In this document: piece by piece, positions 11,820 to 42,614 of the stretch
Layout of the letters: every line of letters starts with the position of its first letter
Position numbering within the stretch: the first letter of the stretch is position 1
Sequence record: NC_073052.1
Strand: one strand, 5' to 3'
Origin: Escherichia phage JLBYU60
Length of the DNA stretch: 44,804 bases
Translations under genes and position numbers: made by a program
Notes under the pieces: generated by a model
What the model was told of the DNA's origin: nothing
What the model saw: the letters and a program-made list of their open reading frames with translations, nothing else
Databases searched by the model: none

Positions 11820-11954
11820 TGAAGCGGGACAGGCGGGACGTCCCGTTTTGTCCCGCCTCTGTAAAACTGCATATCTACTCACTTCCACTGCATAAACTCA
11901 AAACGGGACAAGCGGGACGTCCCGTTTTGTCACGCCCTGTAAATATGCATACCT
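11819..11954. repeat. Tandem ~45-bp sub-repeats each containing the 12-bp palindrome CGGGACGTCCCG
   Basis: Two similar units (about 11824-11875 and 11896-11947); palindromes at 11834-11845 and 11913-11924; each unit also forms GGCGGGAC...GTCCCGCC inverted repeats. Confidence 0.7.
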
Positions 11955-12140
11955 ATGCAGATTTCGTGCATAAACCAAACGGGACAGAAAGCGGGACAAA
12001 CACGAGGCGGGACAAAACGGGACAGCACCCCGTCCCCGCCAGTGCTGCCGCGGTTTTCAGCCGATCGGGACAGCGGGACAGCACCCCAGTCTTTCAGACT
12101 AGACGGGGGTCAATGGCCCCCCTCGTCTGAGACTGAATAA
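11955..12140. repeat. Dispersed direct repeat, copy A (CGGGACA iterons plus long imperfect hairpin)
   Basis: About 186 bp, near-identical at both ends to 40016-40201 (shared ...tgcataaaccaaacgggacagaaagcgggacaaaca... and ...gggacagcgggacagcaccccagtctttcagactagacggggg...cccccctcgtctgagactgaataa); lies between chaperone and tape measure genes. Confidence 0.8.
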
Positions 12141-12203: not shown

Positions 12204-14846
12204 ATGGCAGATCAGGCAGCAGGCATCACGCTAAAGGCTGATGTTGCACAAATCAGAACGGCAAATACTGTGCTGGACTCCTTCGCACAGAAATCCGAGA
12301 ACACAGAAAACAAGGTTAAGAAATTAAACGACACCCTCGGCAAATCCAAAAAGGTGACGAGTGACGCCGCGGGCGGAATGGAAAAGCTGGCAAACGAATC
12401 GCAGCGCGCCGCCGATGGCATGACGAAACAGGAGCGACTCGCCAACAGGTTAGGCATGTCGACTAAAAACCTGGGCTTTGCCTCGCGTAACGCCGCATTC
12501 CAGTTACAGGATATCGCAGTTACGCTTGAGATGGGTATGCCGGTACACCGCGTTATGCTTCAGCAGTTACCGCAGCTAACCGGCGCATTTGGCGGACTAG
12601 GTAACACTCTGCGTTATGTTGCTGGCTTCCTCGGTCCAGTTGGGATCGGCCTTGCTGCGGTAACGGCAACGTTAGGCGTGGGCGTAGCAATTACGTCCCG
12701 AGCAGAGAACCAGGTAGCGGCGCTTAATAAGACGCTGGCACTTTCCGGTAACATTTCCGGCCTGACGGCAAACCAGATCCTGGTGCTATCCGAGAACGCC
12801 GAGCGCATGGGCGGGTCATTCCGCAAGACGCGTGACACAATCCAGGCGCTGGCGGCGGCGGGTGTGAAAGCTGGTGGTGACTTCGGCGCATTGGCTAAGG
12901 TAGTTAATGACTTTGCGAAGGTGTCCAGCCAGCCGATCGAGGATGTGGTAGCGGCGGTGGCGAAGCTGTCAACCGACCCCGTTGGCGGACTGCGTGCGCT
13001 GGCGGATAAGTATCACGTCGTAAACGAAGCGCAGATCCAGCAGGTACAGTCGCTCGTTGATGCGGGTCGTGAGACAGACGCAGTTGCGCTGGCTAACAAA
13101 ACAGCCGCTGCGTCGTTCACCAGCATGACCAATGAGATCAAGGAGAACATGGGTACGCTTGAGCGATCTATGAACGTCGTCACATCGGCAGCCAAATCAA
13201 TGTGGGATGCCATCCTGGATGTGGGCCGCGCGCAGTCCTCCAATGAATCCGAGATGAAAGCGCGCGAATCACTGCAGCGGCTGACCACGGCTTACTATGC
13301 CGAGATGAAAGCGGTAAACGCTGCCGGTGGGGTAATGACTGAAGCGCAGAAAGCACGTATTAACATGCTTTACAGCGAACTGGTCGCCCAGGAAAAAGTG
13401 GTGGCGTCGCTCACCCTGCGTAACCGTGCTGAGCGAGACAACGCCCGCGCCGCAGACGAATCCGCAAAGGCGAACGAGGAGGCCAACCGCACTGCCCGTG
13501 ACCGCGCCGCGTTCGAGAAGGAATACGCCACCAACGCTAAGAAGCGCGCCGACGAGATCGCCCGCCTCAATTTGCTGAATAAGCGCGGCGTTATTGATGA
13601 GAAAGAACTAGCCGAGGCGGTGAAGCAGGTAAACGAGCGGTACAAAGACCCAGCCCCGAAAAAGGCCGCGGCTGTTCGCGTGGATGCCGGTATGAAAATG
13701 CTGGAAGTCGCACGGAGCGAACTGGCCCAGCTTCGAGAATCCGGCAAGCAGATCGAAGCCAACGCGTCTACGCAGACCCGCACGCAACGCGCTCAAGCGG
13801 CCTTAAACAAGCTGATCGCCGACAATGAGCAGTTAATCGCTGCGAGCAAAGAAAGAGCGCTAACGGCAGCAGAAAAGCAGCAATTAGTCGAGTTCGGGCG
13901 CGTGAAGGAAGTCCGCGAGCAGATCGTCGAAGAAGCCAAATTGCTGGATGCGAAAGAGCAGCAGGTTAAGGCGCACGCGCAGATCGATGCCTTCGTTAAG
14001 AACCAGAACGCCGAACTAAAAGCCACCGCGGCGGGCTATGCGCTTTCCACTCGCGAAGCGGCTAACCTGCGCGAAGAATTACAGCTGATTGACCGCCTTA
14101 AGCGCGTTGGTGCTAACGATACCGATATTGACCTGGCGGTGTCTAAGCTGCGCGAAGTGCAGGAAGCACAGACCGGTGCTAACGCCTCGCTATGGGATGG
14201 CTTCAGCCGCGGGCTTAAGGATAGCGTGGATGAAATGGGTAACGGCTATACGCAGATGGCGTCACTCACAAAATTCACGTTCGGCGCTATGCAGGACACG
14301 ATGAACGAGTTTTTCGAGACTGGCAAGCTGAACGCAAAGGATATGGTTAAGTCCATCCTGAGCGAATTAATCAAGCTGGCTACCTCGCAGGCGTTCAAGT
14401 CCATCGTTAGCGCTTTCGGTGGTGACGGCGGCAAAAACGGATTGTTCGGCGCTATCTTTTCCGGCCTCACTAAGAATGCGGACGGCGGAGCGTACGCAGG
14501 GGGCAATCTCGCGGCCTATTCGGGGAAGGTGGTAAGCCAGCCAACCTTTTTCAGTTATGGCGTCCAGGCGTTCGCTAAGGGCGCAGGATTGATGGGCGAG
14601 GCTGGTCCAGAGGCCATCATGCCGCTGAAGCGCGGGCCGGACGGGAAACTGGGCGTTGCCGCGTCTGGCGCAGGCGGTGGTATGGTCGTGACGACTAACG
14701 TTTACACGGGGACCGGTAAAACGGATACCAGTGTCAGCGGGCCGGATCCCCGTACCGCGCAGGCGTTCGGCAAGCAAATCACCGAGGCGGTGAAGGCCGA
14801 GATCGTGAAGGCGACGAAACCGGGTGGTGTACTTTACAAACGATGA
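12204..14846 (+). CDS. Tail tape measure protein
   Basis: 880 aa, long A/Q/E/K-rich coiled-coil central region, glycine-rich C-terminal part; RBS AAGGGGA; lies between chaperone and minor tail genes. Confidence 0.85.
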   Translation: MADQAAGITLKADVAQIRTANTVLDSFAQKSENTENKVKKLNDTLGKSKKVTSDAAGGMEKLANESQRAADGMTKQERLANRLGMSTKNLGFASRNAAFQLQDIAVTLEMGMPVHRVMLQQLPQLTGAFGGLGNTLRYVAGFLGPVGIGLAAVTATLGVGVAITSRAENQVAALNKTLALSGNISGLTANQILVLSENAERMGGSFRKTRDTIQALAAAGVKAGGDFGALAKVVNDFAKVSSQPIEDVVAAVAKLSTDPVGGLRALADKYHVVNEAQIQQVQSLVDAGRETDAVALANKTAAASFTSMTNEIKENMGTLERSMNVVTSAAKSMWDAILDVGRAQSSNESEMKARESLQRLTTAYYAEMKAVNAAGGVMTEAQKARINMLYSELVAQEKVVASLTLRNRAERDNARAADESAKANEEANRTARDRAAFEKEYATNAKKRADEIARLNLLNKRGVIDEKELAEAVKQVNERYKDPAPKKAAAVRVDAGMKMLEVARSELAQLRESGKQIEANASTQTRTQRAQAALNKLIADNEQLIAASKERALTAAEKQQLVEFGRVKEVREQIVEEAKLLDAKEQQVKAHAQIDAFVKNQNAELKATAAGYALSTREAANLREELQLIDRLKRVGANDTDIDLAVSKLREVQEAQTGANASLWDGFSRGLKDSVDEMGNGYTQMASLTKFTFGAMQDTMNEFFETGKLNAKDMVKSILSELIKLATSQAFKSIVSAFGGDGGKNGLFGAIFSGLTKNADGGAYAGGNLAAYSGKVVSQPTFFSYGVQAFAKGAGLMGEAGPEAIMPLKRGPDGKLGVAASGAGGGMVVTTNVYTGTGKTDTSVSGPDPRTAQAFGKQITEAVKAEIVKATKPGGVLYKR

Positions 14847-16267: not shown

Positions 16268-17008
16268 ATGTTAACGAAAAAGGTTAAAAGCGATATCGCC
16301 GCACACGTTGCGGCGTGTCTGCCGGAAGAAGCCTGTGGCCTGGTTGTCATGGTGGGTCGTAAGCAAGTGTTCGTCCCATGTCTGAACGTATTCGAAGACC
16401 CGACCGGCGTGCGCTCCCGCAAAGACGCTTTTACGATTAGTGATATGGCCTGGATGGATGCCGAGGATATGGGCGACGTCGTGCGCGTAGTCCACTCACA
16501 CCCAGGTCAGCGCGAGTTAACCCCCTCACTGGGCGACGTTAACGGATGCAACGGCAGCGGCGTAGTGTGGACCATCACTAACGAATATGGCGACTTTATT
16601 GAGATTGACCCGGAAGACCCGCCGCTGGTTGGTCGCCGATTTGTTCTCGGAATTACGGATTGTTATGGCCTCGTTATGGACTGGCACAAAAAGCAGGGAG
16701 TAAATTTGCCAGACTTCCGCGTGCCGTACAACTGGTGGGAGACCGGGGAGAACCTGTACATGGATAACTGGTACGGTGCAGGCTTCAGGGAATGCGAGGA
16801 GAATACGCCTGGGGCGATGGTCATCATGCAGATTAGCGCGCCAGTGCCTAACCATGCCGGAATCTACCTTCCGGGCAACCAACTACTACACCACATCTAC
16901 GGCAGCCTGTCGAGCGTGGTCCCCTTCCGGGCGGGATTTTTCCGCGACAATGTGGTTAAATGGGTCCGTCATAAAGACCTACCGGGGAATATCACAGAAT
17001 GGCAATGA
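16268..17008 (+). CDS. Tail assembly protein (lambda gpK-like, JAB/MPN + NlpC/P60)
   Basis: JAMM motif VVHSHPGQRELTPSLGD and downstream catalytic-Cys region DCYGLV typical of gpK. Confidence 0.8.
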   Translation: MLTKKVKSDIAAHVAACLPEEACGLVVMVGRKQVFVPCLNVFEDPTGVRSRKDAFTISDMAWMDAEDMGDVVRVVHSHPGQRELTPSLGDVNGCNGSGVVWTITNEYGDFIEIDPEDPPLVGRRFVLGITDCYGLVMDWHKKQGVNLPDFRVPYNWWETGENLYMDNWYGAGFRECEENTPGAMVIMQISAPVPNHAGIYLPGNQLLHHIYGSLSSVVPFRAGFFRDNVVKWVRHKDLPGNITEWQ

Positions 17009-24078: not shown

Positions 24079-24651
24079 GTTTGAGTTTTCCCAGTCCATT
24101 TTGCGCCGCACCAGCGGGCTTTCGTAATATTCCTTGCCTTCCACTTCCACTAAGGGCCAGTCGTTCACTATAACGTATGGCTCCGCGATATCCTCGATCA
24201 CGCCGTGCGCACTATGTTGCCCGAAATCTACGCCCACCAGAATAACACCGGCAACTCGACGAGTGAGATACTCGCGAGCGCAACGCGCCTCTACCAGTCC
24301 GCGACGGATGCCGCTGGTGGCTTTGACCTCATATGTCCATACGGCATCAATCATGTGTTCTTTGTAGTCGGGGCCGGACTTAACCTTGCGCTTGCCGACC
24401 ATGATAATATCGCCGCGGTCGATAGTGTTAGCGCTAAACAGGCCAGTACGCATTAGCAAACCTTGTGGAATACAGCTACGCCCTCCCGCCTGCCCTTCGA
24501 GGTACATGCCTGCAAACATCTCGCCCAGTACACCGACAAGACGGCTTTGCTTGCACGCGTCAGACTTGTATCGCCACTGGTCAAACTCGATGCTTGCTAT
24601 CATTGCCGCCAGGTGGAATTGTTTACCCGATATTTCATATTCGCCGTACAT
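24076..24651 (-). CDS. Hypothetical protein, possible PD-(D/E)xK-type nuclease
   Basis: 191 aa; weak D...EVK signature (GDIIMVG...WTYEVKATSG); first gene of the minus-strand DNA metabolism block. Confidence 0.4.
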   Translation of the reverse strand: MYGEYEISGKQFHLAAMIASIEFDQWRYKSDACKQSRLVGVLGEMFAGMYLEGQAGGRSCIPQGLLMRTGLFSANTIDRGDIIMVGKRKVKSGPDYKEHMIDAVWTYEVKATSGIRRGLVEARCAREYLTRRVAGVILVGVDFGQHSAHGVIEDIAEPYVIVNDWPLVEVEGKEYYESPLVRRKMDWENSN

Positions 24652-37614: not shown

Positions 37615-39879
37615 ATGAGCTTGATTAAATTCGCTGTAACAAAACCCGCTAAAAAAGGCGAAAAAGCCAGGGCGGAAAACTTCCAGATGACGACCGATGA
37701 GTTTTTCGAATTTATCAAAGATGCGAAAGAAATCTCCTCGGTGCATATCAACAAGACGGAAGATAAAGCCGAGTATGCGCGCCGCAAGCGTAAGGCCGAT
37801 GGCATCGTGGCGTATACCAGTGACGGATTGCGTCGTAAGACCAGTGCGGTGGACCGTTCGATCCTGTTCTTTGATATTGACCGCACCGACACCCGCACCC
37901 TGCGCCGCTGCCGCAAGGCGTTCATCGACGCGGGTCTGGAACACGTATTTCACACCACAACCGGCGACCGCCACCCGCTGAAAGGAGGCACGCGTTGCGC
38001 TCGTTTCCTGGTGCTCACCGATAAGCCTGTACCTGCTGAAGACCTGGGCCGCGTCCAGTATGCACTATTACACCAACTGGGCCTGTCAGATGTGGACTTC
38101 GATGATTGCACGAAAGACACAAACCGCCTTATGTACCTGCCTCACCAGCAATCGGTTGTTAAGTGTCACTACGGCAAACGTGCCCGCGTCCGTCGTCTGC
38201 TGCGCCTGGCGGATAAGCTGGGAGTGGAAAAAGAGGAAGTACGCCGCGAACTAACCCAGGGCGATGACGGCGTGGCGGACGGCATTCTGGATTGGTGCTT
38301 CCAGGCCGGATTCGAACCGCTGTCGTCCGGTCGTGGTTATGAAGTGCCATGCCCGAACGAACATCTGCATAGTGGCGAAGGGTCCACCGCTATCATGGTT
38401 AAGGATGGCGAGATCCGTTTCAAGTGTATGCACACCGGCAACGAGTGCTGTTCCGAACTGAACAGACACCAGCACCTGGCGCTACGTCTTATCGGGATCC
38501 CGGACCACCTGAACGTCGAACCGCACAACATGTCACGTAAGCAAATCGCCGCCATCCTTCCGGGACTGGACGACGAGGAGGTCGAATCGTGCTATGAACA
38601 TATCGTTGATGCGGTCGGTGACGGCGACGAGTACGGCGGATGTACGGACGCAGACCTGGACAACGAGCCGGTTGCACTGTTCAGTAAGCACGACCCGATC
38701 ATAGAAGGTCTGATTAACTTCAAATCGACCTGGTATATGGCTGGCGAGTCGAACATCGGTAAATCGTTCTACGTGCTGGGCCAAATGGGTGCGGTTGCCG
38801 CGGGGATTCCGTTCGGCGGCGCGAAGGTCGTCCAGTCCCATTGCTTCTATTTCGACGCGGAAGGTGGCGAAGCCTCTAACCAGCGCAAAGAAGCATTGCA
38901 GATTAAATATGAGCACGACCTGGACAAGCTGCACATTATCGATCTGCAATCACGCGGCTGGGATATCACCAGCAAATCCGGCTTGCGTGAAGTTATCAGC
39001 TTCATCAACCGCACCGCTAACGGCGAACCGGTTGGCCTGGTGGCGTTCGACTCACTCAACCAGACTGTTGCGTTGCGGTCCGCGGATGCTAAACCGTTCG
39101 ACGAGAACAACGCCAGCGATATGGGTGAAGTGGTCAAAGCGCTGAAGGCCATCGCGGAAAATACAGGTGGCAGTGCGGGCGTCATCCACCACCCGGCGAA
39201 GGGTGCAAACGGCAGCAGAACCCCCCGCGGGTCCGGCGCGCTGCATGGCGCTGTCGATTCTGCGTTCTTCCTGGAACAGCCGGACGACAACCAGCCAGGC
39301 CAATTGAACCTGTATCACGAAAAGGCACGTAACGGCATCAAGCAAGCGCCGCGTGGCTTCGTCCTGCTCAAGTGCAAGGTGAAGGTGGATCTCCGCAAGT
39401 CAGAAGCGTTCGAAGCCCACCAGTCCACCAGCACCGGGCCGGACTTCGGCGATGTGGTCGCCGGTTGGGACGTCAAGCCGATCGCATCAACGCCACGCGA
39501 CGAGACTCTTTACCTCGTACCGGTCGCCCTGGCACCGTTCGCCATTGAGCAGGCAAAGGCCGCTGGCAAGGCCGCAGTTAAGGAAGAGAACGCCGCAGGA
39601 CCGCGCAACGAAAAAGAGAAAGTGCTTTATGCAGCGCTGGAAAAACTGATGGAAGATAACCCGGACCATACCGGATTCAGCAAATCGGCAATTGTCCGCC
39701 AGGCTGGGCTTGCGAAAGGTGGCACATCGACGAAGGCAATCGACGATATGGTCGAGCGCGGCGTACTCGGTTTTTACACAGATCCGCACACCGGGGCCAT
39801 CTATGGGTCGTCGAATATCGTCATCAAAACGAATATACCCATCACGCTTTCGGCGACCGATGATGATTTAAAAGATTAA
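37615..39879 (+). CDS. Primase-helicase (replication initiation protein with RecA-like AAA_25-type ATPase domain)
   Basis: 754 aa; N-terminal region with LFFDIDRTD acidic motif and Cys/His zinc-binding segment CPNEHLHSGEG...FKCMHTGNEC; central Walker A GESNIGKS and Walker B-like LVAFDSLNQ. Confidence 0.7.
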   Translation: MSLIKFAVTKPAKKGEKARAENFQMTTDEFFEFIKDAKEISSVHINKTEDKAEYARRKRKADGIVAYTSDGLRRKTSAVDRSILFFDIDRTDTRTLRRCRKAFIDAGLEHVFHTTTGDRHPLKGGTRCARFLVLTDKPVPAEDLGRVQYALLHQLGLSDVDFDDCTKDTNRLMYLPHQQSVVKCHYGKRARVRRLLRLADKLGVEKEEVRRELTQGDDGVADGILDWCFQAGFEPLSSGRGYEVPCPNEHLHSGEGSTAIMVKDGEIRFKCMHTGNECCSELNRHQHLALRLIGIPDHLNVEPHNMSRKQIAAILPGLDDEEVESCYEHIVDAVGDGDEYGGCTDADLDNEPVALFSKHDPIIEGLINFKSTWYMAGESNIGKSFYVLGQMGAVAAGIPFGGAKVVQSHCFYFDAEGGEASNQRKEALQIKYEHDLDKLHIIDLQSRGWDITSKSGLREVISFINRTANGEPVGLVAFDSLNQTVALRSADAKPFDENNASDMGEVVKALKAIAENTGGSAGVIHHPAKGANGSRTPRGSGALHGAVDSAFFLEQPDDNQPGQLNLYHEKARNGIKQAPRGFVLLKCKVKVDLRKSEAFEAHQSTSTGPDFGDVVAGWDVKPIASTPRDETLYLVPVALAPFAIEQAKAAGKAAVKEENAAGPRNEKEKVLYAALEKLMEDNPDHTGFSKSAIVRQAGLAKGGTSTKAIDDMVERGVLGFYTDPHTGAIYGSSNIVIKTNIPITLSATDDDLKD

Positions 39880-39954
39880 ATTTTGCGCGCATTGGTTGCC
39901 GATATGGGAATTCCCATATCGCTAAAAGGTTAAATTTTGCGCGCATTGGTTGCC
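39876..39954. repeat. 25-bp perfect direct repeats flanking a 20-bp perfect palindrome
   Basis: TTAAATTTTGCGCGCATTGGTTGCC at 39876-39900 and 39930-39954; palindrome GATATGGGAATTCCCATATC at 39901-39920; first repeat overlaps the primase-helicase stop codon. Confidence 0.85.
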
Positions 39955-40015
39955 ATTTTGAGTGTTTTTATCAGGTCGTATTGGTTGCCGTGTAGTGTGA
40001 ATATAGTGAATAGTT

Positions 40016-40201
40016 ATGCAGTTTTACTGCATAAACCAAACGGGACAGAAAGCGGGACAAACAAGGGGCGGGACAAAGCGGGACAGCACCCCCGTCCCGC
40101 CCCGGATGGCGCGGCCTGGAGAGGAGCGGGACAGCGGGACAGCACCCCAGTCTTTCAGACTAGACGGGGGTCAGCGGCCCCCCTCGTCTGAGACTGAATA
40201 A
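40016..40201. repeat. Dispersed direct repeat, copy B (CGGGACA iterons plus long imperfect hairpin)
   Basis: Same orientation and length as copy A, 28,061 bp downstream; central ~45 bp diverged; located in the non-coding hub after the primase-helicase gene. Confidence 0.8.
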
Positions 40202-40728: not shown

Positions 40729-41160
40729 ATGACCCGTAGACGCGCAAAACAGCTTTCGTGGCATATTCCCCTGCATTGCATACGAATATGGGCTAAGAAT
40801 GCGAATGTGGGGGATTCTGTATTCTGGTGTTATCGCGACGACGTAAAGCCACTGACGCAGACTCGCTACTTGCACCTGTTCGCAGCAAAGCACGGATTCC
40901 AGGTGCGGACTTCCTTGCAACCAATGGGGATCCGTATTACATTACGCCGAAAGCCCGCCATTGAGCGGGTAGGCAAACACTGGAGACTGAGCAAAATGAA
41001 CAAGCAACCTGAACGCTGGCGGAGTAAGGCCACGCGACTGACTTACTTCGTGACAGAAGAAGCAAACGGCAACGTGACTATTTCACACCCTAAGTGTGGT
41101 ACTCGCCGCACTATCTCGCGCCTCACATTAGTTCGTAACTACAGGAGATTGACAGAATGA
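40729..41160 (+). CDS. Hypothetical basic protein
   Basis: 143-aa ORF, arginine-rich; RBS-like GAGG upstream; no motifs. Confidence 0.5.
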   Translation: MTRRRAKQLSWHIPLHCIRIWAKNANVGDSVFWCYRDDVKPLTQTRYLHLFAAKHGFQVRTSLQPMGIRITLRRKPAIERVGKHWRLSKMNKQPERWRSKATRLTYFVTEEANGNVTISHPKCGTRRTISRLTLVRNYRRLTE

Positions 41161-41558
41161 AAATGATATTCCGCAATAAGCATAATGGGCGATTCCTTAC
41201 CCCGATCGAAGTGCTGCCGAACTATGTGCGCATGTACCATGAAGCCAGCGACCGCGTATTCTGGTACAAGAAAGCCACCCTGCATGAGCATTTGCAGGTA
41301 GTGCACCACGACGTACGAGTAGGTGATGTGCTGCGTTGTGATGGCAATGACTACACTTGGGTCGTGAAGTCAGTCGGGACGGAATGGATTACTATCGACA
41401 GCACTCTGGTGGCAGGCGCGACTATTAACCCCGCCACCCTGGTGAATTACACCCGCGTAGGCCGGAACTACACACCTAAGCGCCCTGGCGTCGTGGCGAA
41501 AGCGATCACCCGTACGGAGCACCCATATACCAAATACGACGAGAGCAAGGTGCGCTAG
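41157..41558 (+). CDS. Hypothetical protein
   Basis: 133-aa ORF, start ATGA-overlaps the upstream stop; ends at TAG followed in-frame by ~50 further sense codons. Confidence 0.5.
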   Translation: MKMIFRNKHNGRFLTPIEVLPNYVRMYHEASDRVFWYKKATLHEHLQVVHHDVRVGDVLRCDGNDYTWVVKSVGTEWITIDSTLVAGATINPATLVNYTRVGRNYTPKRPGVVAKAITRTEHPYTKYDESKVR

Positions 41559-41983
41559 CATATCGACAACGCCCGGAAGGCCATTACCCAGCAATGCGAT
41601 GCAATGCGCATGGCTAATCTGGACGCAAAACGCCACGGAATCGGCGTGCTCCTGGTCTACCCCGACGGTAGCATGAAGTCCGTAAGCCCGTTGCGTGTGG
41701 TGCTGAAATGAATAAATTCGATTTAGTGCGGGATAAATTAACCCGCGATTTATACTTGGTGGTCGCCGTAACCCATTACCAGGTTAAACTACGTAATGTG
41801 GCTACTAAGCAAGCGCACTGGGCGCCACGCCATAACCCACATCTGGAGGTCGTATCCCGTGTCGGCTGTGATTCGTGATATGCTGATGCATAACCGCTTT
41901 GAGATAGGCGGTCGGGTATTTCGCAATTACTTCGTGGCGCGTGCATGGGCGCGCCATATTGGCAAACCGGAAGGGGCAATTCG

Positions 41984-42271
41984 ATGCTACACGATTTGAT
42001 TTATTGGTTTGGTTTTGGGTGCGCGACACTCTTTGCTACGGTGCTGGCGCTGTTGGTATGGGTATTCCTGATTTGGCCCGCGGTGGAAGCTGCCAGTATT
42101 ACCCGCATGACGTTCGAGGTCTACAAGCGCCGTGGAATAACGGAGCACCCGACCAGGCTTCGGATGTGGTGGCTGTGGTATCGGGATATGATAGGCGGTC
42201 GAACATTCGAAGCCGTCCGCTCATCCGGGTGGGAGTGGAAAGGCGTCGGCAAGTGGTCCGTTTTCGATTAA
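41984..42271 (+). CDS. Small membrane protein
   Basis: 95 aa from ATG 41984 (MLHDLIYWFGFGCATLFATVLALLVWVFLIW), one strong TM helix; followed by a strong terminator. Confidence 0.45.
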   Translation: MLHDLIYWFGFGCATLFATVLALLVWVFLIWPAVEAASITRMTFEVYKRRGITEHPTRLRMWWLWYRDMIGGRTFEAVRSSGWEWKGVGKWSVFD

Positions 42272-42288
42272 TTATGCAAGCGTGATAT

Positions 42289-42323
42289 AGTCCCAGTGAG
42301 CTAAAACTTACTGGGACTTTTTT
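42289..42323 (+). terminator. Rho-independent terminator immediately upstream of holin start
   Basis: Perfect 9-bp stem AGTCCCAGT / ACTGGGACT with 12-nt loop followed by TTTTT; holin ATG at 42324. Confidence 0.75.
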
Positions 42324-42614
42324 ATGGATAAGCTAAACGAGTGGTTATTCGCCCTTGCGTGTCTTGCTGGTGGCTTCGTCGGCGCACGCATTCACGGCGA
42401 GGCTACGAAAGGGCCGCTAAACTTCGTGTTATATATCGTAGTTGGCTTCCTGTGTGCCATCTTTGGTGCGCCAGCTATCGCCGAGTGGGCTGGCTTATCT
42501 GGCGAGCGCACTGTCGCCGGTTTGGGCTTCGTAACTGCAATCTTCTGGATGCCAATAGCCGCCCGGATCAGGGAGACTATTGAGTCGTTCCGACTTCCGG
42601 GGGGCGCAAAATGA
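42324..42614 (+). CDS. Putative holin
   Basis: 96 aa with three predicted TM segments; immediately upstream of a second small membrane protein and the endolysin. Confidence 0.55.
   Translation: MDKLNEWLFALACLAGGFVGARIHGEATKGPLNFVLYIVVGFLCAIFGAPAIAEWAGLSGERTVAGLGFVTAIFWMPIAARIRETIESFRLPGGAK

What the first reader, a model, noticed from the sequence alone, without database searches (positions are those of the whole stretch)
41157..41711. In-frame TAG separates two coding-like segments (possible amber site, readthrough or split gene)
The ORF 41157-41558 ends at TAG (41556-41558), yet the same frame continues for about 50 sense codons with protein-like composition (HIDNARKAITQQCDAMRMANLDAKRHGIGVLLVYPDGSMKSVSPLRVVLK) to TGA at 41709-41711, with no convincing RBS for an independent start (first ATG at about 41604). 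This could be an amber mutation in a laboratory phage, a natural stop-codon readthrough, or two short genes.
Basis: seen in the sequence. Interest (0 to 1): 0.4.

Follow-up and report, generated by a model that had tools for sequence, protein, structure and literature searches.

The report
Private nonsense mutation truncating phage gene
One base change (GAG to TAG) in coliphage JLBYU60 cuts short a 184-residue protein of unknown function that is one continuous protein in its relatives, so this is an ordinary recent nonsense mutation in an apparently dispensable gene, not readthrough, recoding or two genes.

Summary
ORF 41157-41558 ends at TAG (41556-41558), and the same frame stays open for 50 codons to TGA at 41709-41711.

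The window is Escherichia phage JLBYU60 (genus Dhillonvirus). It is a wild sewage isolate grown on MG1655 derivatives and sequenced by Illumina at about 176x mean depth.

- **One gene in relatives.** The 555-nt stretch is a single 174-186-aa gene (PHROG 10243; HK578 gp52 family). All 41 aligned homologues have a sense residue at codon 134, and 38 of them continue at least 41 residues further.
- **A recent, private change.** The closest relative, Opt212, differs in this gene at two bases: a synonymous change and G->T at 41556 (GAG->TAG). Nothing differs downstream. The TAG allele was not found in any other collection searched.
- **The downstream segment is coding in relatives.** Codons 135-184 are under purifying selection (dN/dS 0.15-0.32).
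- **No recoding machinery.** The genome has no tRNA genes, and TAG is the normal stop of its polymerase and tail genes. The downstream in-frame ATGs have no ribosome-binding site.

Best reading: a recent, isolated nonsense mutation. It leaves a 133-aa product with the folded N-terminal domain but without the conserved C-terminal module. It probably also uncouples translation of the next gene, whose ATGA overlap is conserved. Interest is low.

The parts
41143..41147 (+). Shine-Dalgarno (AGGAG) of the gene, 9 nt upstream of the ATG at 41157
   Evidence: Sequence. SD:anti-SD duplex dG is -7.4 kcal/mol against a background mean of -2.7.
41157..41558 (+). Truncated CDS (133 aa), deposited as JLBYU60_54 (UGO55310.1 / YP_010740340.1). 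It encodes the N-terminal beta-rich domain, the linker and the first 5 residues of the C-terminal helix of a PHROG 10243 protein.
   Evidence: ORF list. Exact-sequence look-up. PHROG 10243 match over 1-184 of 184 positions, E 1e-90, for the reconstituted protein. AF2 model of homologue P0004 (92% identical): residues 1-105 have pLDDT about 90, residues 106-128 are disordered, and a helix spans 129-160.
41556..41558 (+). Premature amber codon (codon 134). T at 41556 replaces G (GAG, Glu) of the nearest relatives.
   Evidence: DNA alignment: Opt212 and JLBYU37 have GAG, Gluttony has CAG. This is one of only 2 differences from Opt212 in 555 nt. Column 134 in 41 homologues is E16/Q9/A9/D3/S3/G1 and never a stop. 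The allele is absent from IMG/VR, metagenome and genome contigs.
41554..41559 (.). GCTAGC (NheI recognition sequence) created by the mutation. It is the only such site in the window and contains the strongly avoided tetranucleotide CTAG.
   Evidence: GCTAGC occurs only at 41554; CTAG is seen 17 times against about 172 expected from base composition.
41559..41711 (+). Remnant of codons 135-184 plus the original TGA stop. It encodes the conserved C-terminal helix-hairpin module and is no longer reached by ribosomes that start at 41157.
   Evidence: No differences from Opt212. dN/dS is 0.15-0.32 among intact relatives. Invariant or near-invariant columns are A139, A149, A153, A157, G161, G163, V167, D170, G171, M173, P178 and R179. 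tblastn finds the module in 135 phage records. The ATGs at 41604 and 41610 have no SD.
41708..41878 (+). Next ORF (56 aa). Its ATG overlaps the original TGA of the gene (ATGA), so it is probably translationally coupled.
   Evidence: The ATGA overlap is present in all 10 genomes examined. The product is identical in Opt212. It has only a modest SD of its own (GGTG, dG -5.1).
42289..42318 (+). Terminator-like hairpin followed by a T-run. It ends the cluster of small genes that contains this gene, just upstream of the holin genes.
   Evidence: 12-bp stem, TTTTTAT tail. A sub-threshold Rfam hit sits on the same hairpin.

Best explanation
A recent single-base substitution (G->T at 41556, GAG Glu134 -> TAG) interrupts the JLBYU60 orthologue of Opt212 gp13 / HK578 gp52 (PHROG 10243). 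This is a Dhillonvirus protein of unknown function with two parts: a folded beta-rich N-terminal domain (about residues 1-105) and, after a disordered linker, a conserved C-terminal helix-hairpin module (about residues 129-184).

Shown here: the substitution, its uniqueness to this phage, the continuity and conservation of the gene in relatives, and the absence of a suppressor tRNA, of a restart signal and of genome-wide TAG recoding.

Inferred: on a non-suppressing host such as MG1655, RF1 terminates translation at the UAG. That would release a 133-aa product that keeps the N-domain and linker but lacks the C-module. The 153 nt downstream would then be untranslated relic coding sequence that has not yet had time to decay. 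Ribosomes would no longer arrive at the conserved ATGA stop/start junction, so translation of the next small ORF (41708) would depend on its own weak SD. The phage forms plaques on MG1655, so the full-length protein is dispensable under laboratory conditions. This fits the other independent disruptions of this gene seen in other lineages.
For: - **Identity of the window.** The 133-aa product is exactly JLBYU60_54, on a 44,804-bp contig.
- **Provenance.** The phage is a wild sewage isolate, plated on MG1655 knock-outs and sequenced on Illumina iSeq at 14-369x depth, mean 175.7x (PMC10373560).
- **Relatives have one CDS.** It is 555 nt in Opt212, JLBYU37 and Gluttony, 558 nt in welsh, 561 nt in mckay, 540 nt in phiEco273, 525 nt in HK578 and 543 nt in EP23.
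- **The family is continuous.** Of 55 protein clusters, nearly all cover 100% of the 184-aa query. Column 134 is always a sense residue, and 38 of 41 homologues extend at least 41 aa beyond it.
- **The change is recent.** There are 2 differences from Opt212 in 555 nt (one synonymous, at 41357, and the nonsense change) and none downstream. Only 3 substitutions occur across 40994-42090.
- **The C-terminal segment is coding in relatives.** dN/dS is 0.15-0.32 with dS up to 0.72.
- **No recoding.** There are no tRNA genes. TAG terminates the polymerase, tail-fibre and minor-tail genes exactly where the Opt212 proteins end.
- **An isolated event.** This is the only genuine premature stop, and no shared gene is frameshifted, relative to 66 Opt212 CDSs.
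- **A private allele.** The TAG allele is absent from IMG/VR, metagenome and genome contigs, while sense alleles are present in 4 IMG/VR contigs. The 90% cluster of the 133-aa product contains no other truncated member.
- **Independent disruptions elsewhere.** These are a frameshift near residue 140 in an ENA contig, a split gene in Maverick, a deletion-fusion in P0031 and an in-frame internal deletion in P0067.
- **Coupling to the next gene.** The ATGA overlap is conserved in 10 of 10 genomes.
Against: No read-level data were available, so a consensus error or a mixed population at 41556 cannot be excluded. Local coverage at this site is unknown, and the genome-wide minimum was 14x. Nothing here shows that the 133-aa product is made or stable. 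The gene has no known function or phenotype, so 'dispensable' rests only on the phage being viable on MG1655. The C-module is present in nearly all Dhillonvirus records (135 records), which suggests it matters in nature; loss might therefore carry a fitness cost not seen in the laboratory. The polar effect on the 41708 ORF is inferred from the conserved overlap and was not measured.
Confidence: 0.8

Rival explanations
1. Sequencing, consensus or stock artefact. The phage really carries GAG at codon 134, or the stock is a mixture, and the T at 41556 is a base-calling or assembly error or a variant fixed during laboratory propagation of the sequenced lysate.
For: The allele is unique to this one deposited genome. 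It is one of only three substitutions in a 1.1-kb block otherwise identical to Opt212. The minimum genome coverage was as low as 14x. A variant fixed during plaque purification would look identical in the record.
Against: Illumina data at a mean of 176x rarely give consensus substitution errors. The rest of the assembly is clean: no other genuine premature stop and no frameshift in shared genes against 66 Opt212 CDSs. A mutation fixed in the laboratory stock would still be a real nonsense mutation of the sequenced phage, which is the main explanation.
Confidence: 0.1
2. The UAG is functionally decoded. Full-length protein would be made by suppression in natural hosts that carry amber suppressors, or by context-dependent readthrough, so the gene would still be effectively intact.
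For: The downstream frame is perfectly intact. Gln, which a supE-type suppressor would insert (my own knowledge), is a natural residue at this column in 9 of 41 homologues. The base after the stop is C, which from memory (Poole et al. 1995) is one of the weaker termination contexts in E. coli.
Against: No homologue has a stop here, so this is not a conserved recoding site. The phage has no tRNA, and TAG is the genuine stop of essential genes in the same genome. The isolation host MG1655 has no suppressor (and my own knowledge). The intact downstream frame is equally explained by the mutation being recent. Basal UAG readthrough in E. coli is typically below about 1% (my own knowledge).
Confidence: 0.04
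3. Two separately translated products. After termination at the UAG, ribosomes would reinitiate at the in-frame ATG 41604 or 41610 and make a 33-35-aa peptide carrying the conserved GIGVLLVYPDGSMKS hairpin. The gene would then work as a split gene.
For: Four ATGs cluster 36-54 nt downstream of the stop, two of them in frame. The protein has two modules separated by a disordered linker. The C-module also occurs joined to an unrelated N-terminus in BF9. A short PHROG (27442, 64 positions) and a 69-aa BFVD entry from phage PNS1 match only the C-module.
Against: The in-frame ATGs have no SD pairing (dG +0.3, worse than background). A 35-aa product would lack most of the 129-160 helix. Sequence relatives of this segment in 1.84 billion representatives were only P0049 (185 aa, full length) and P0067 (58 aa), the latter an in-frame internal deletion derivative that keeps the normal N-terminal start. 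The other six hits are long repeat-rich proteins: P0064, the only one inspected, is a tandem repeat, and I take the rest (3-10 matched stretches each) to be compositional as well. No relative examined annotates the segment as a separate gene.
Confidence: 0.03
4. Adaptive truncation. Loss of the C-module, or of the whole function, would be selected, for example to escape a host defence that senses this genus-wide protein. A precedent in the same genus is Ksap1 and KpAvs2.
For: At least three lineages independently lost or uncoupled the C-terminal part while keeping the N-domain: the JLBYU60 nonsense change, the ERZ27269271 frameshift near residue 140, and the P0031 deletion. Escape from defence by mutation of a small conserved Dhillonvirus protein is documented for Ksap1 (PMC11564622).
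Against: Ascertainment is biased, because a protein search finds N-terminally intact truncations more easily than early disruptions. Maverick is split early in the gene, and P0067 keeps the C-terminal end but loses the middle. No defence system is known to target this protein. Ksap1 (74 aa, located elsewhere) and anti-Tmn (ORF35) are different genes. A handful of events among 135 or more genomes is what a dispensable gene would show under neutrality.
Confidence: 0.05

Closest known systems
Opt212 gp13 (UHS64794.1, hypothetical protein, 184 aa) and the HK578 gp52 / SO-1 gp52 family (PHROG 10243)
   Same: The gene, its position and its flanks match. The sequence is 99.6% identical to Opt212 at the DNA level, and the protein is identical except at codon 134. 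The ATGA overlap with the next ORF is the same.
   Different: The window has TAG where the family has a sense codon. The annotated product is therefore 133 aa and lacks the conserved C-terminal module.
Classical conditional-lethal amber mutants of laboratory phages (T4, lambda)
   Same: A sense codon is changed to UAG by a single base change. The full-length product would be restored on a suppressor host.
   Different: This phage is a wild isolate propagated on a non-suppressing host. The gene is evidently not essential for plaque formation, and no selection on a suppressor strain was involved.
Natural nonsense or frameshift polymorphisms (incipient pseudogenes) in phage accessory genes
   Same: An isolated, lineage-private disruption of a non-essential gene, with the downstream reading frame still intact. 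Other lineages carry other disruptions of the same gene.
   Different: Nothing material. This is the category the feature belongs to.
Stop-codon reassignment or programmed readthrough in phages (for example TAG-recoded crAss-like or Lak phages; readthrough coat extension in Qbeta)
   Same: An in-frame TAG is followed by protein-coding sequence.
   Different: There is a single occurrence in the genome, no suppressor tRNA, and TAG is used as a true stop in core genes. The stop is not conserved in any homologue.

Membership tests
PHROG 10243 / HK578 gp52-like Dhillonvirus protein | Full-length sequence match to the family profile | tested here: met
   The reconstituted 184-aa translation matches positions 1-184 of 184, E 9.7e-91. 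It is 92-100% identical to cluster members.
PHROG 10243 / HK578 gp52-like Dhillonvirus protein | Conserved genomic position: small-gene cluster between the primase/helicase gene and the holin/lysin cassette, with an ATGA overlap to the next ORF | tested here: met
PHROG 10243 / HK578 gp52-like Dhillonvirus protein | One uninterrupted ORF of about 162-198 aa that includes the C-terminal module | tested here: not met
   TAG at codon 134, whereas 38 of 41 homologues continue at least 41 aa past this column. The locus is a disrupted allele of the family gene.
Laboratory amber (suppressor-sensitive) phage mutant | Sense codon replaced by TAG through a single base change | tested here: met
   GAG -> TAG at 41556.
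Laboratory amber (suppressor-sensitive) phage mutant | Derived or maintained on an amber-suppressor host; growth depends on suppression | tested here: not met
   The phage was isolated from sewage and plated on MG1655 derivatives (PMC10373560). MG1655 is sup0 (my own knowledge).
Programmed stop-codon readthrough | The stop codon is conserved at the same position in homologues | tested here: not met
   None of 41 homologues has a stop at column 134.
Programmed stop-codon readthrough | A readthrough-promoting context or downstream RNA structure that raises readthrough above background | not tested
   The only observation is that the base after the stop is C. The flanks are identical in relatives that have a sense codon, so no dedicated signal is expected.
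Genome-wide TAG reassignment (recoded phage) | Many in-frame TAGs in conserved genes, with TAG not used as a terminator | tested here: not met
   Only one genuine in-frame stop against 66 Opt212 CDSs. TAG ends the DNA polymerase, tail-fibre and minor-tail ORFs.
Genome-wide TAG reassignment (recoded phage) | Phage-encoded suppressor tRNA | tested here: not met
   ARAGORN finds no tRNA genes in the window.
Two independent adjacent genes | The downstream segment has its own start codon with a ribosome-binding site | tested here: not met
   The only in-frame starts are ATG 41604 and 41610, and their SD duplex dG is +0.3.
Two independent adjacent genes | Homologues annotate or encode the two parts as separate genes | tested here: not met
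   There is one CDS in Opt212, JLBYU37, Gluttony, welsh, mckay, phiEco273, HK578 and EP23. The exceptions are evident frameshift or deletion derivatives.

The most novel reading that the evidence does not exclude
The truncation may not be a neutral accident. It could be one of several independent, selected losses or uncouplings of the genus-wide C-terminal module: the JLBYU60 nonsense change, a metagenomic frameshift near residue 140, and a deletion-fusion. One possible reason is that a host defence senses this conserved Dhillonvirus protein, as KpAvs2 senses Ksap1 in the same genus. Another is that the N-domain alone has a distinct activity.
Probability: 0.06. Interest if true: 0.45.

Novelty: already known. 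Interest (0 to 1): 0.08.

Why it matters
It matters little beyond annotation.

- **Annotation.** The GenBank and RefSeq records list JLBYU60_54 as an ordinary 133-aa hypothetical protein. It would be better flagged as a truncated allele of the 184-aa family gene.
- **A natural knock-down.** The phage is a natural loss of the C-terminal module of a protein found in nearly all Dhillonviruses. Comparing it with the near-isogenic Opt212 allele could give a first handle on what that protein does.
- **A cheap diagnostic.** The mutation creates the only NheI recognition sequence in the genome.

Tried and rejected
**Function of the protein**
- Anti-Tmn of phage SM_S22: rejected. That protein is ORF35 and is described with a different predicted fold; the SM_S22 homologue of this gene is CDS0061.
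- Ksap1, the KpAvs2 trigger in Dhillonviruses: rejected. It is a 74-aa protein located between the methyltransferase and phosphatase genes.
- Pfam gave only a sub-threshold DNA_ligase_OB hit (15 bits against a cut-off of 32.9). NCBIfam gave nothing. A PDB profile search gave nothing.
- Foldseek against PDB gave only weak tandem KOW/Tudor-like beta-barrel similarities (TM 0.2-0.5). These are too generic to assign a function.

**Stand-alone C-module**
- The word-indexed protein search with the 50-aa segment found no candidates.
- The exhaustive HMMER search returned six long repeat-rich proteins, which I take to be compositional matches (only P0064 was inspected, and it is a tandem repeat). It also returned a full-length family member and a 58-aa in-frame deletion derivative. 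None is a genuine stand-alone gene.

**Other checks**
- The JLBYU60 record itself is not in the annotated phage collection.
- Two other apparent in-frame stops against Opt212 (OPT26, OPT30) fall in over-extended 5' ends of doubtful Opt212 gene calls that overlap the preceding gene. They are not disruptions.
- An apparent TAG followed by 268 open codons after 24205-24456 comes from the crude ORF list, on the opposite strand to the aligned relative genes there. I did not pursue it.
- Rfam gave only a sub-threshold NsiR1 hit, which lies on the terminator hairpin.

Full report
**Observation.** The sequence is as described. An ORF with a good Shine-Dalgarno (AGGAG at 41143-41147) starts at ATG 41157 and ends at TAG 41556-41558. 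The same frame then runs for 50 sense codons (HIDNARK...RVVLK) to TGA at 41709-41711. The open stretch alone is not statistically remarkable. At this base composition, 50 stop-free codons has P about 0.13, and longer open stretches follow other stops in the window. The only in-frame ATGs after the TAG (41604 and 41610) have no anti-SD complementarity: dG is +0.3 kcal/mol, against -7.4 at the true start and a background mean of -2.7.

**Identity of the window.** The 133-aa product is an exact match to 'hypothetical protein JLBYU60_54' (UGO55310.1 / YP_010740340.1), on a contig of 44,804 bp, which is the length of the window. Escherichia phage JLBYU60 (OK272474) is a Dhillonvirus (SO-1/HK578-like siphovirus). 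It was isolated from raw sewage in Utah and plated on E. coli MG1655 knock-out strains. It was sequenced on an Illumina iSeq at 14-369x depth, mean 175.7x (PMC10373560). It is therefore a wild isolate grown on a host that, to my knowledge, carries no amber suppressor. It is not a laboratory amber mutant.

**Relatives have one continuous gene.**
- The equivalent stretch is annotated as a single CDS of 555 nt in Opt212, JLBYU37 and Gluttony, 558 nt in welsh, 561 nt in mckay, 540 nt in phiEco273, 525 nt in HK578 (gp52, 'similar to SO-1 gp52') and 543 nt in EP23.
- With codon 134 read as Glu, the window's translation matches PHROG 10243 over all 184 positions (E 1e-90).
- In a search of 5.8 billion proteins, 55 clusters were found. 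Nearly all are 162-198 aa and cover 100% of the query, and the 133-aa JLBYU60 product is an outlier.
- In a 42-sequence alignment, the column of codon 134 holds E (16), Q (9), A (9), D (3), S (3) and G (1), and never a stop. Of 41 homologues, 38 continue at least 41 residues beyond it.
- The C-terminal segment holds many invariant or near-invariant columns: A139, A149, A153, A157, G161, G163, V167, D170, G171, M173, P178 and R179.
- By tblastn, the segment is present in 135 phage records, nearly all from Escherichia or Shigella phages; every record whose taxonomy I inspected is a Dhillonvirus.
- Among intact relatives, codons 135-184 have dN/dS of 0.15-0.32 with dS up to 0.72, so the segment is translated and constrained there.

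**The change is single, recent and private.**
- Against Opt212, the 555 nt differ at two positions: a synonymous T/C at 41357, and T/G at 41556, which turns GAG into TAG. Nothing differs downstream of the stop.
- The gene lies in a block (40994-42090) with only three substitutions against Opt212, while the flanks diverge by several percent.
- The TAG-bearing sequence is absent from IMG/VR, the metagenome contigs and the GTDB genome contigs. The GAG/CAG versions occur in four IMG/VR contigs.
- The 90%-identity cluster of the 133-aa product contains no other truncated member.

**Recoding is excluded.** The window has no tRNA genes. TAG terminates the DNA polymerase, tail-fibre and minor-tail ORFs exactly where the Opt212 proteins end. 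A tblastn of all 66 Opt212 proteins against the window finds only this one genuine in-frame stop and no frameshifts in shared genes. Two other apparent stops lie in over-extended, overlapping 5' ends of doubtful Opt212 gene calls. This also shows that the assembly is clean, which argues against a generally error-prone consensus. A single erroneous base cannot be excluded without the reads.

**What is lost.**
- An AlphaFold2 model of the 92%-identical intact homologue P0004 (mean pLDDT 77) has a confident all-beta N-terminal region (residues 1-105, pLDDT about 90). A disordered linker follows (106-128), then a long helix (129-160) and a small hairpin (165-175).
- Codon 134 lies at the start of that helix. 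The truncated product would therefore keep the N-domain and linker and lose the C-module.
- The two parts also behave as evolutionary modules. BF9 joins the C-module to an unrelated N-terminal sequence. The C-module alone matches a short PHROG (27442) and a 69-aa BFVD entry.
- Function remains unknown. Pfam, NCBIfam and PDB sequence searches gave nothing significant. Fold hits were weak tandem KOW/Tudor-like barrels.
- The protein is neither the Dhillonvirus anti-Tmn protein nor Ksap1.

**Likely consequences (inferred).** In MG1655, RF1 should terminate at the UAG and release the 133-aa product. The original TGA of the gene overlaps the ATG of the next ORF (ATGA) in all ten genomes examined, which is a strong sign of translational coupling. 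With termination 150 nt upstream, that coupling is lost, and the 41708 ORF must rely on its own weak GGTG SD (dG -5.1). The phage plaques normally enough to have been isolated and studied. The full-length protein therefore appears dispensable in the laboratory.

**The gene is disrupted in other lineages too.**
- An ENA contig has a frameshift near residue 140, with the C-module continuing in another frame.
- Maverick has the gene split into 81-aa and 92-aa ORFs.
- P0031 is a deletion that fuses the N-domain to the downstream small gene.
- P0067 is a 58-aa in-frame internal deletion.

These could hint at selection for loss. However, the sample is small, and detection favours truncations that keep the N-terminus. 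I give an adaptive reading only a low probability.

**Verdict.** The feature is an ordinary, recent, lineage-private nonsense mutation (E134amber) in a non-essential accessory gene of a wild coliphage. It is of low general interest. Its use is mainly as an annotation correction and as a natural C-terminal truncation allele of a genus-wide protein of unknown function. The mutation also creates the only GCTAGC (NheI) sequence in a genome that is about 10-fold depleted in CTAG, which offers a simple diagnostic.

Noticed in passing
window 40729-41160 (junction at about 40990-40996): This is one 143-aa ORF where relatives have two genes: gene A (about 89-91 aa, phrog_12533) and gene B (54 aa in Opt212), joined by an ATGA overlap. 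The window reads CTGAGCAAAATGAAC, against CTG-GCGAAATGAAC in Opt212. The one extra base puts A and B in the same frame (..WRLSK-MNKQPERW..). The junction lies exactly where the near-identity block with Opt212 begins, so it looks like a mosaic recombination joint that created an in-frame fusion.
   Followed up: partly
window 39876-40201 and 11946-12140: The apparently non-coding stretch after the primase/helicase gene is full of iterated motifs: TTAAATTTTGCGCGCATTGGTTGCC twice, a 22-nt palindrome at 39900-39921, and GGGACA at least six times. A 195-bp part of it (40007-40201) is repeated at 86.7% identity at 11946-12140, upstream of the tape-measure gene. These could be iterons, an origin or regulatory sites. 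No Rfam match was found.
   Followed up: partly
whole window; 41554-41559: CTAG is about 10-fold under-represented (17 observed against about 172 expected from base composition). The nonsense mutation creates the only GCTAGC (NheI) sequence in the genome.
   Followed up: partly
L010 (phage BF9, MW822006.1), about 545-860: An un-annotated ORF carries the conserved C-terminal module (…SKIRHATREIVNRFDAV…GVGFIRVEPDGSMNAIDPRSVILK) fused to an unrelated N-terminal sequence (MTPALFAGCSQEFIDLVSCYDDYTHYGIATV…). This is a module swap in the same gene slot.
   Followed up: partly
L005 (Maverick) 566-1065; L015 (ERZ27269271 contig) 1201-1750; P0031; L017 826-1002 (P0067): Four other independent lesions of the same gene were seen: a split into 81-aa and 92-aa ORFs, a frameshift near residue 140, a deletion fusing the N-domain to the downstream small gene, and a 58-aa in-frame internal deletion.
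   Followed up: partly
window 41796-41999 (likely true start GTG 41859): The conserved 46-48-aa small protein (MSAxIRDMLxHNRFEIGGRVFRNYFVARAWARHIGKPEG..) directly follows the studied gene in most Dhillonviruses. In the window it probably starts at GTG 41859, behind a GGAGG at 41845-41849, rather than at ATG 41796. In the window, Opt212 and JLBYU37, an extra 56-aa ORF (41708-41878) lies between the studied gene and this small protein.
   Followed up: no
L016 (Opt212) 13606-14004 and 16669-16977; window about 33281 and 29931: Two Opt212 CDS calls (OPT212_26 and OPT212_30) have long 5' extensions that overlap the preceding genes. The window has stops inside those extensions, which suggests the Opt212 starts are annotated too far upstream.
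   Followed up: partly
window 42273-42325: A sub-threshold Rfam hit (NsiR1, 29.3 bits against a gathering score of 39) coincides with the terminator hairpin at 42289-42318 upstream of the holin genes. It is almost certainly a chance match to a hairpin.
   Followed up: no
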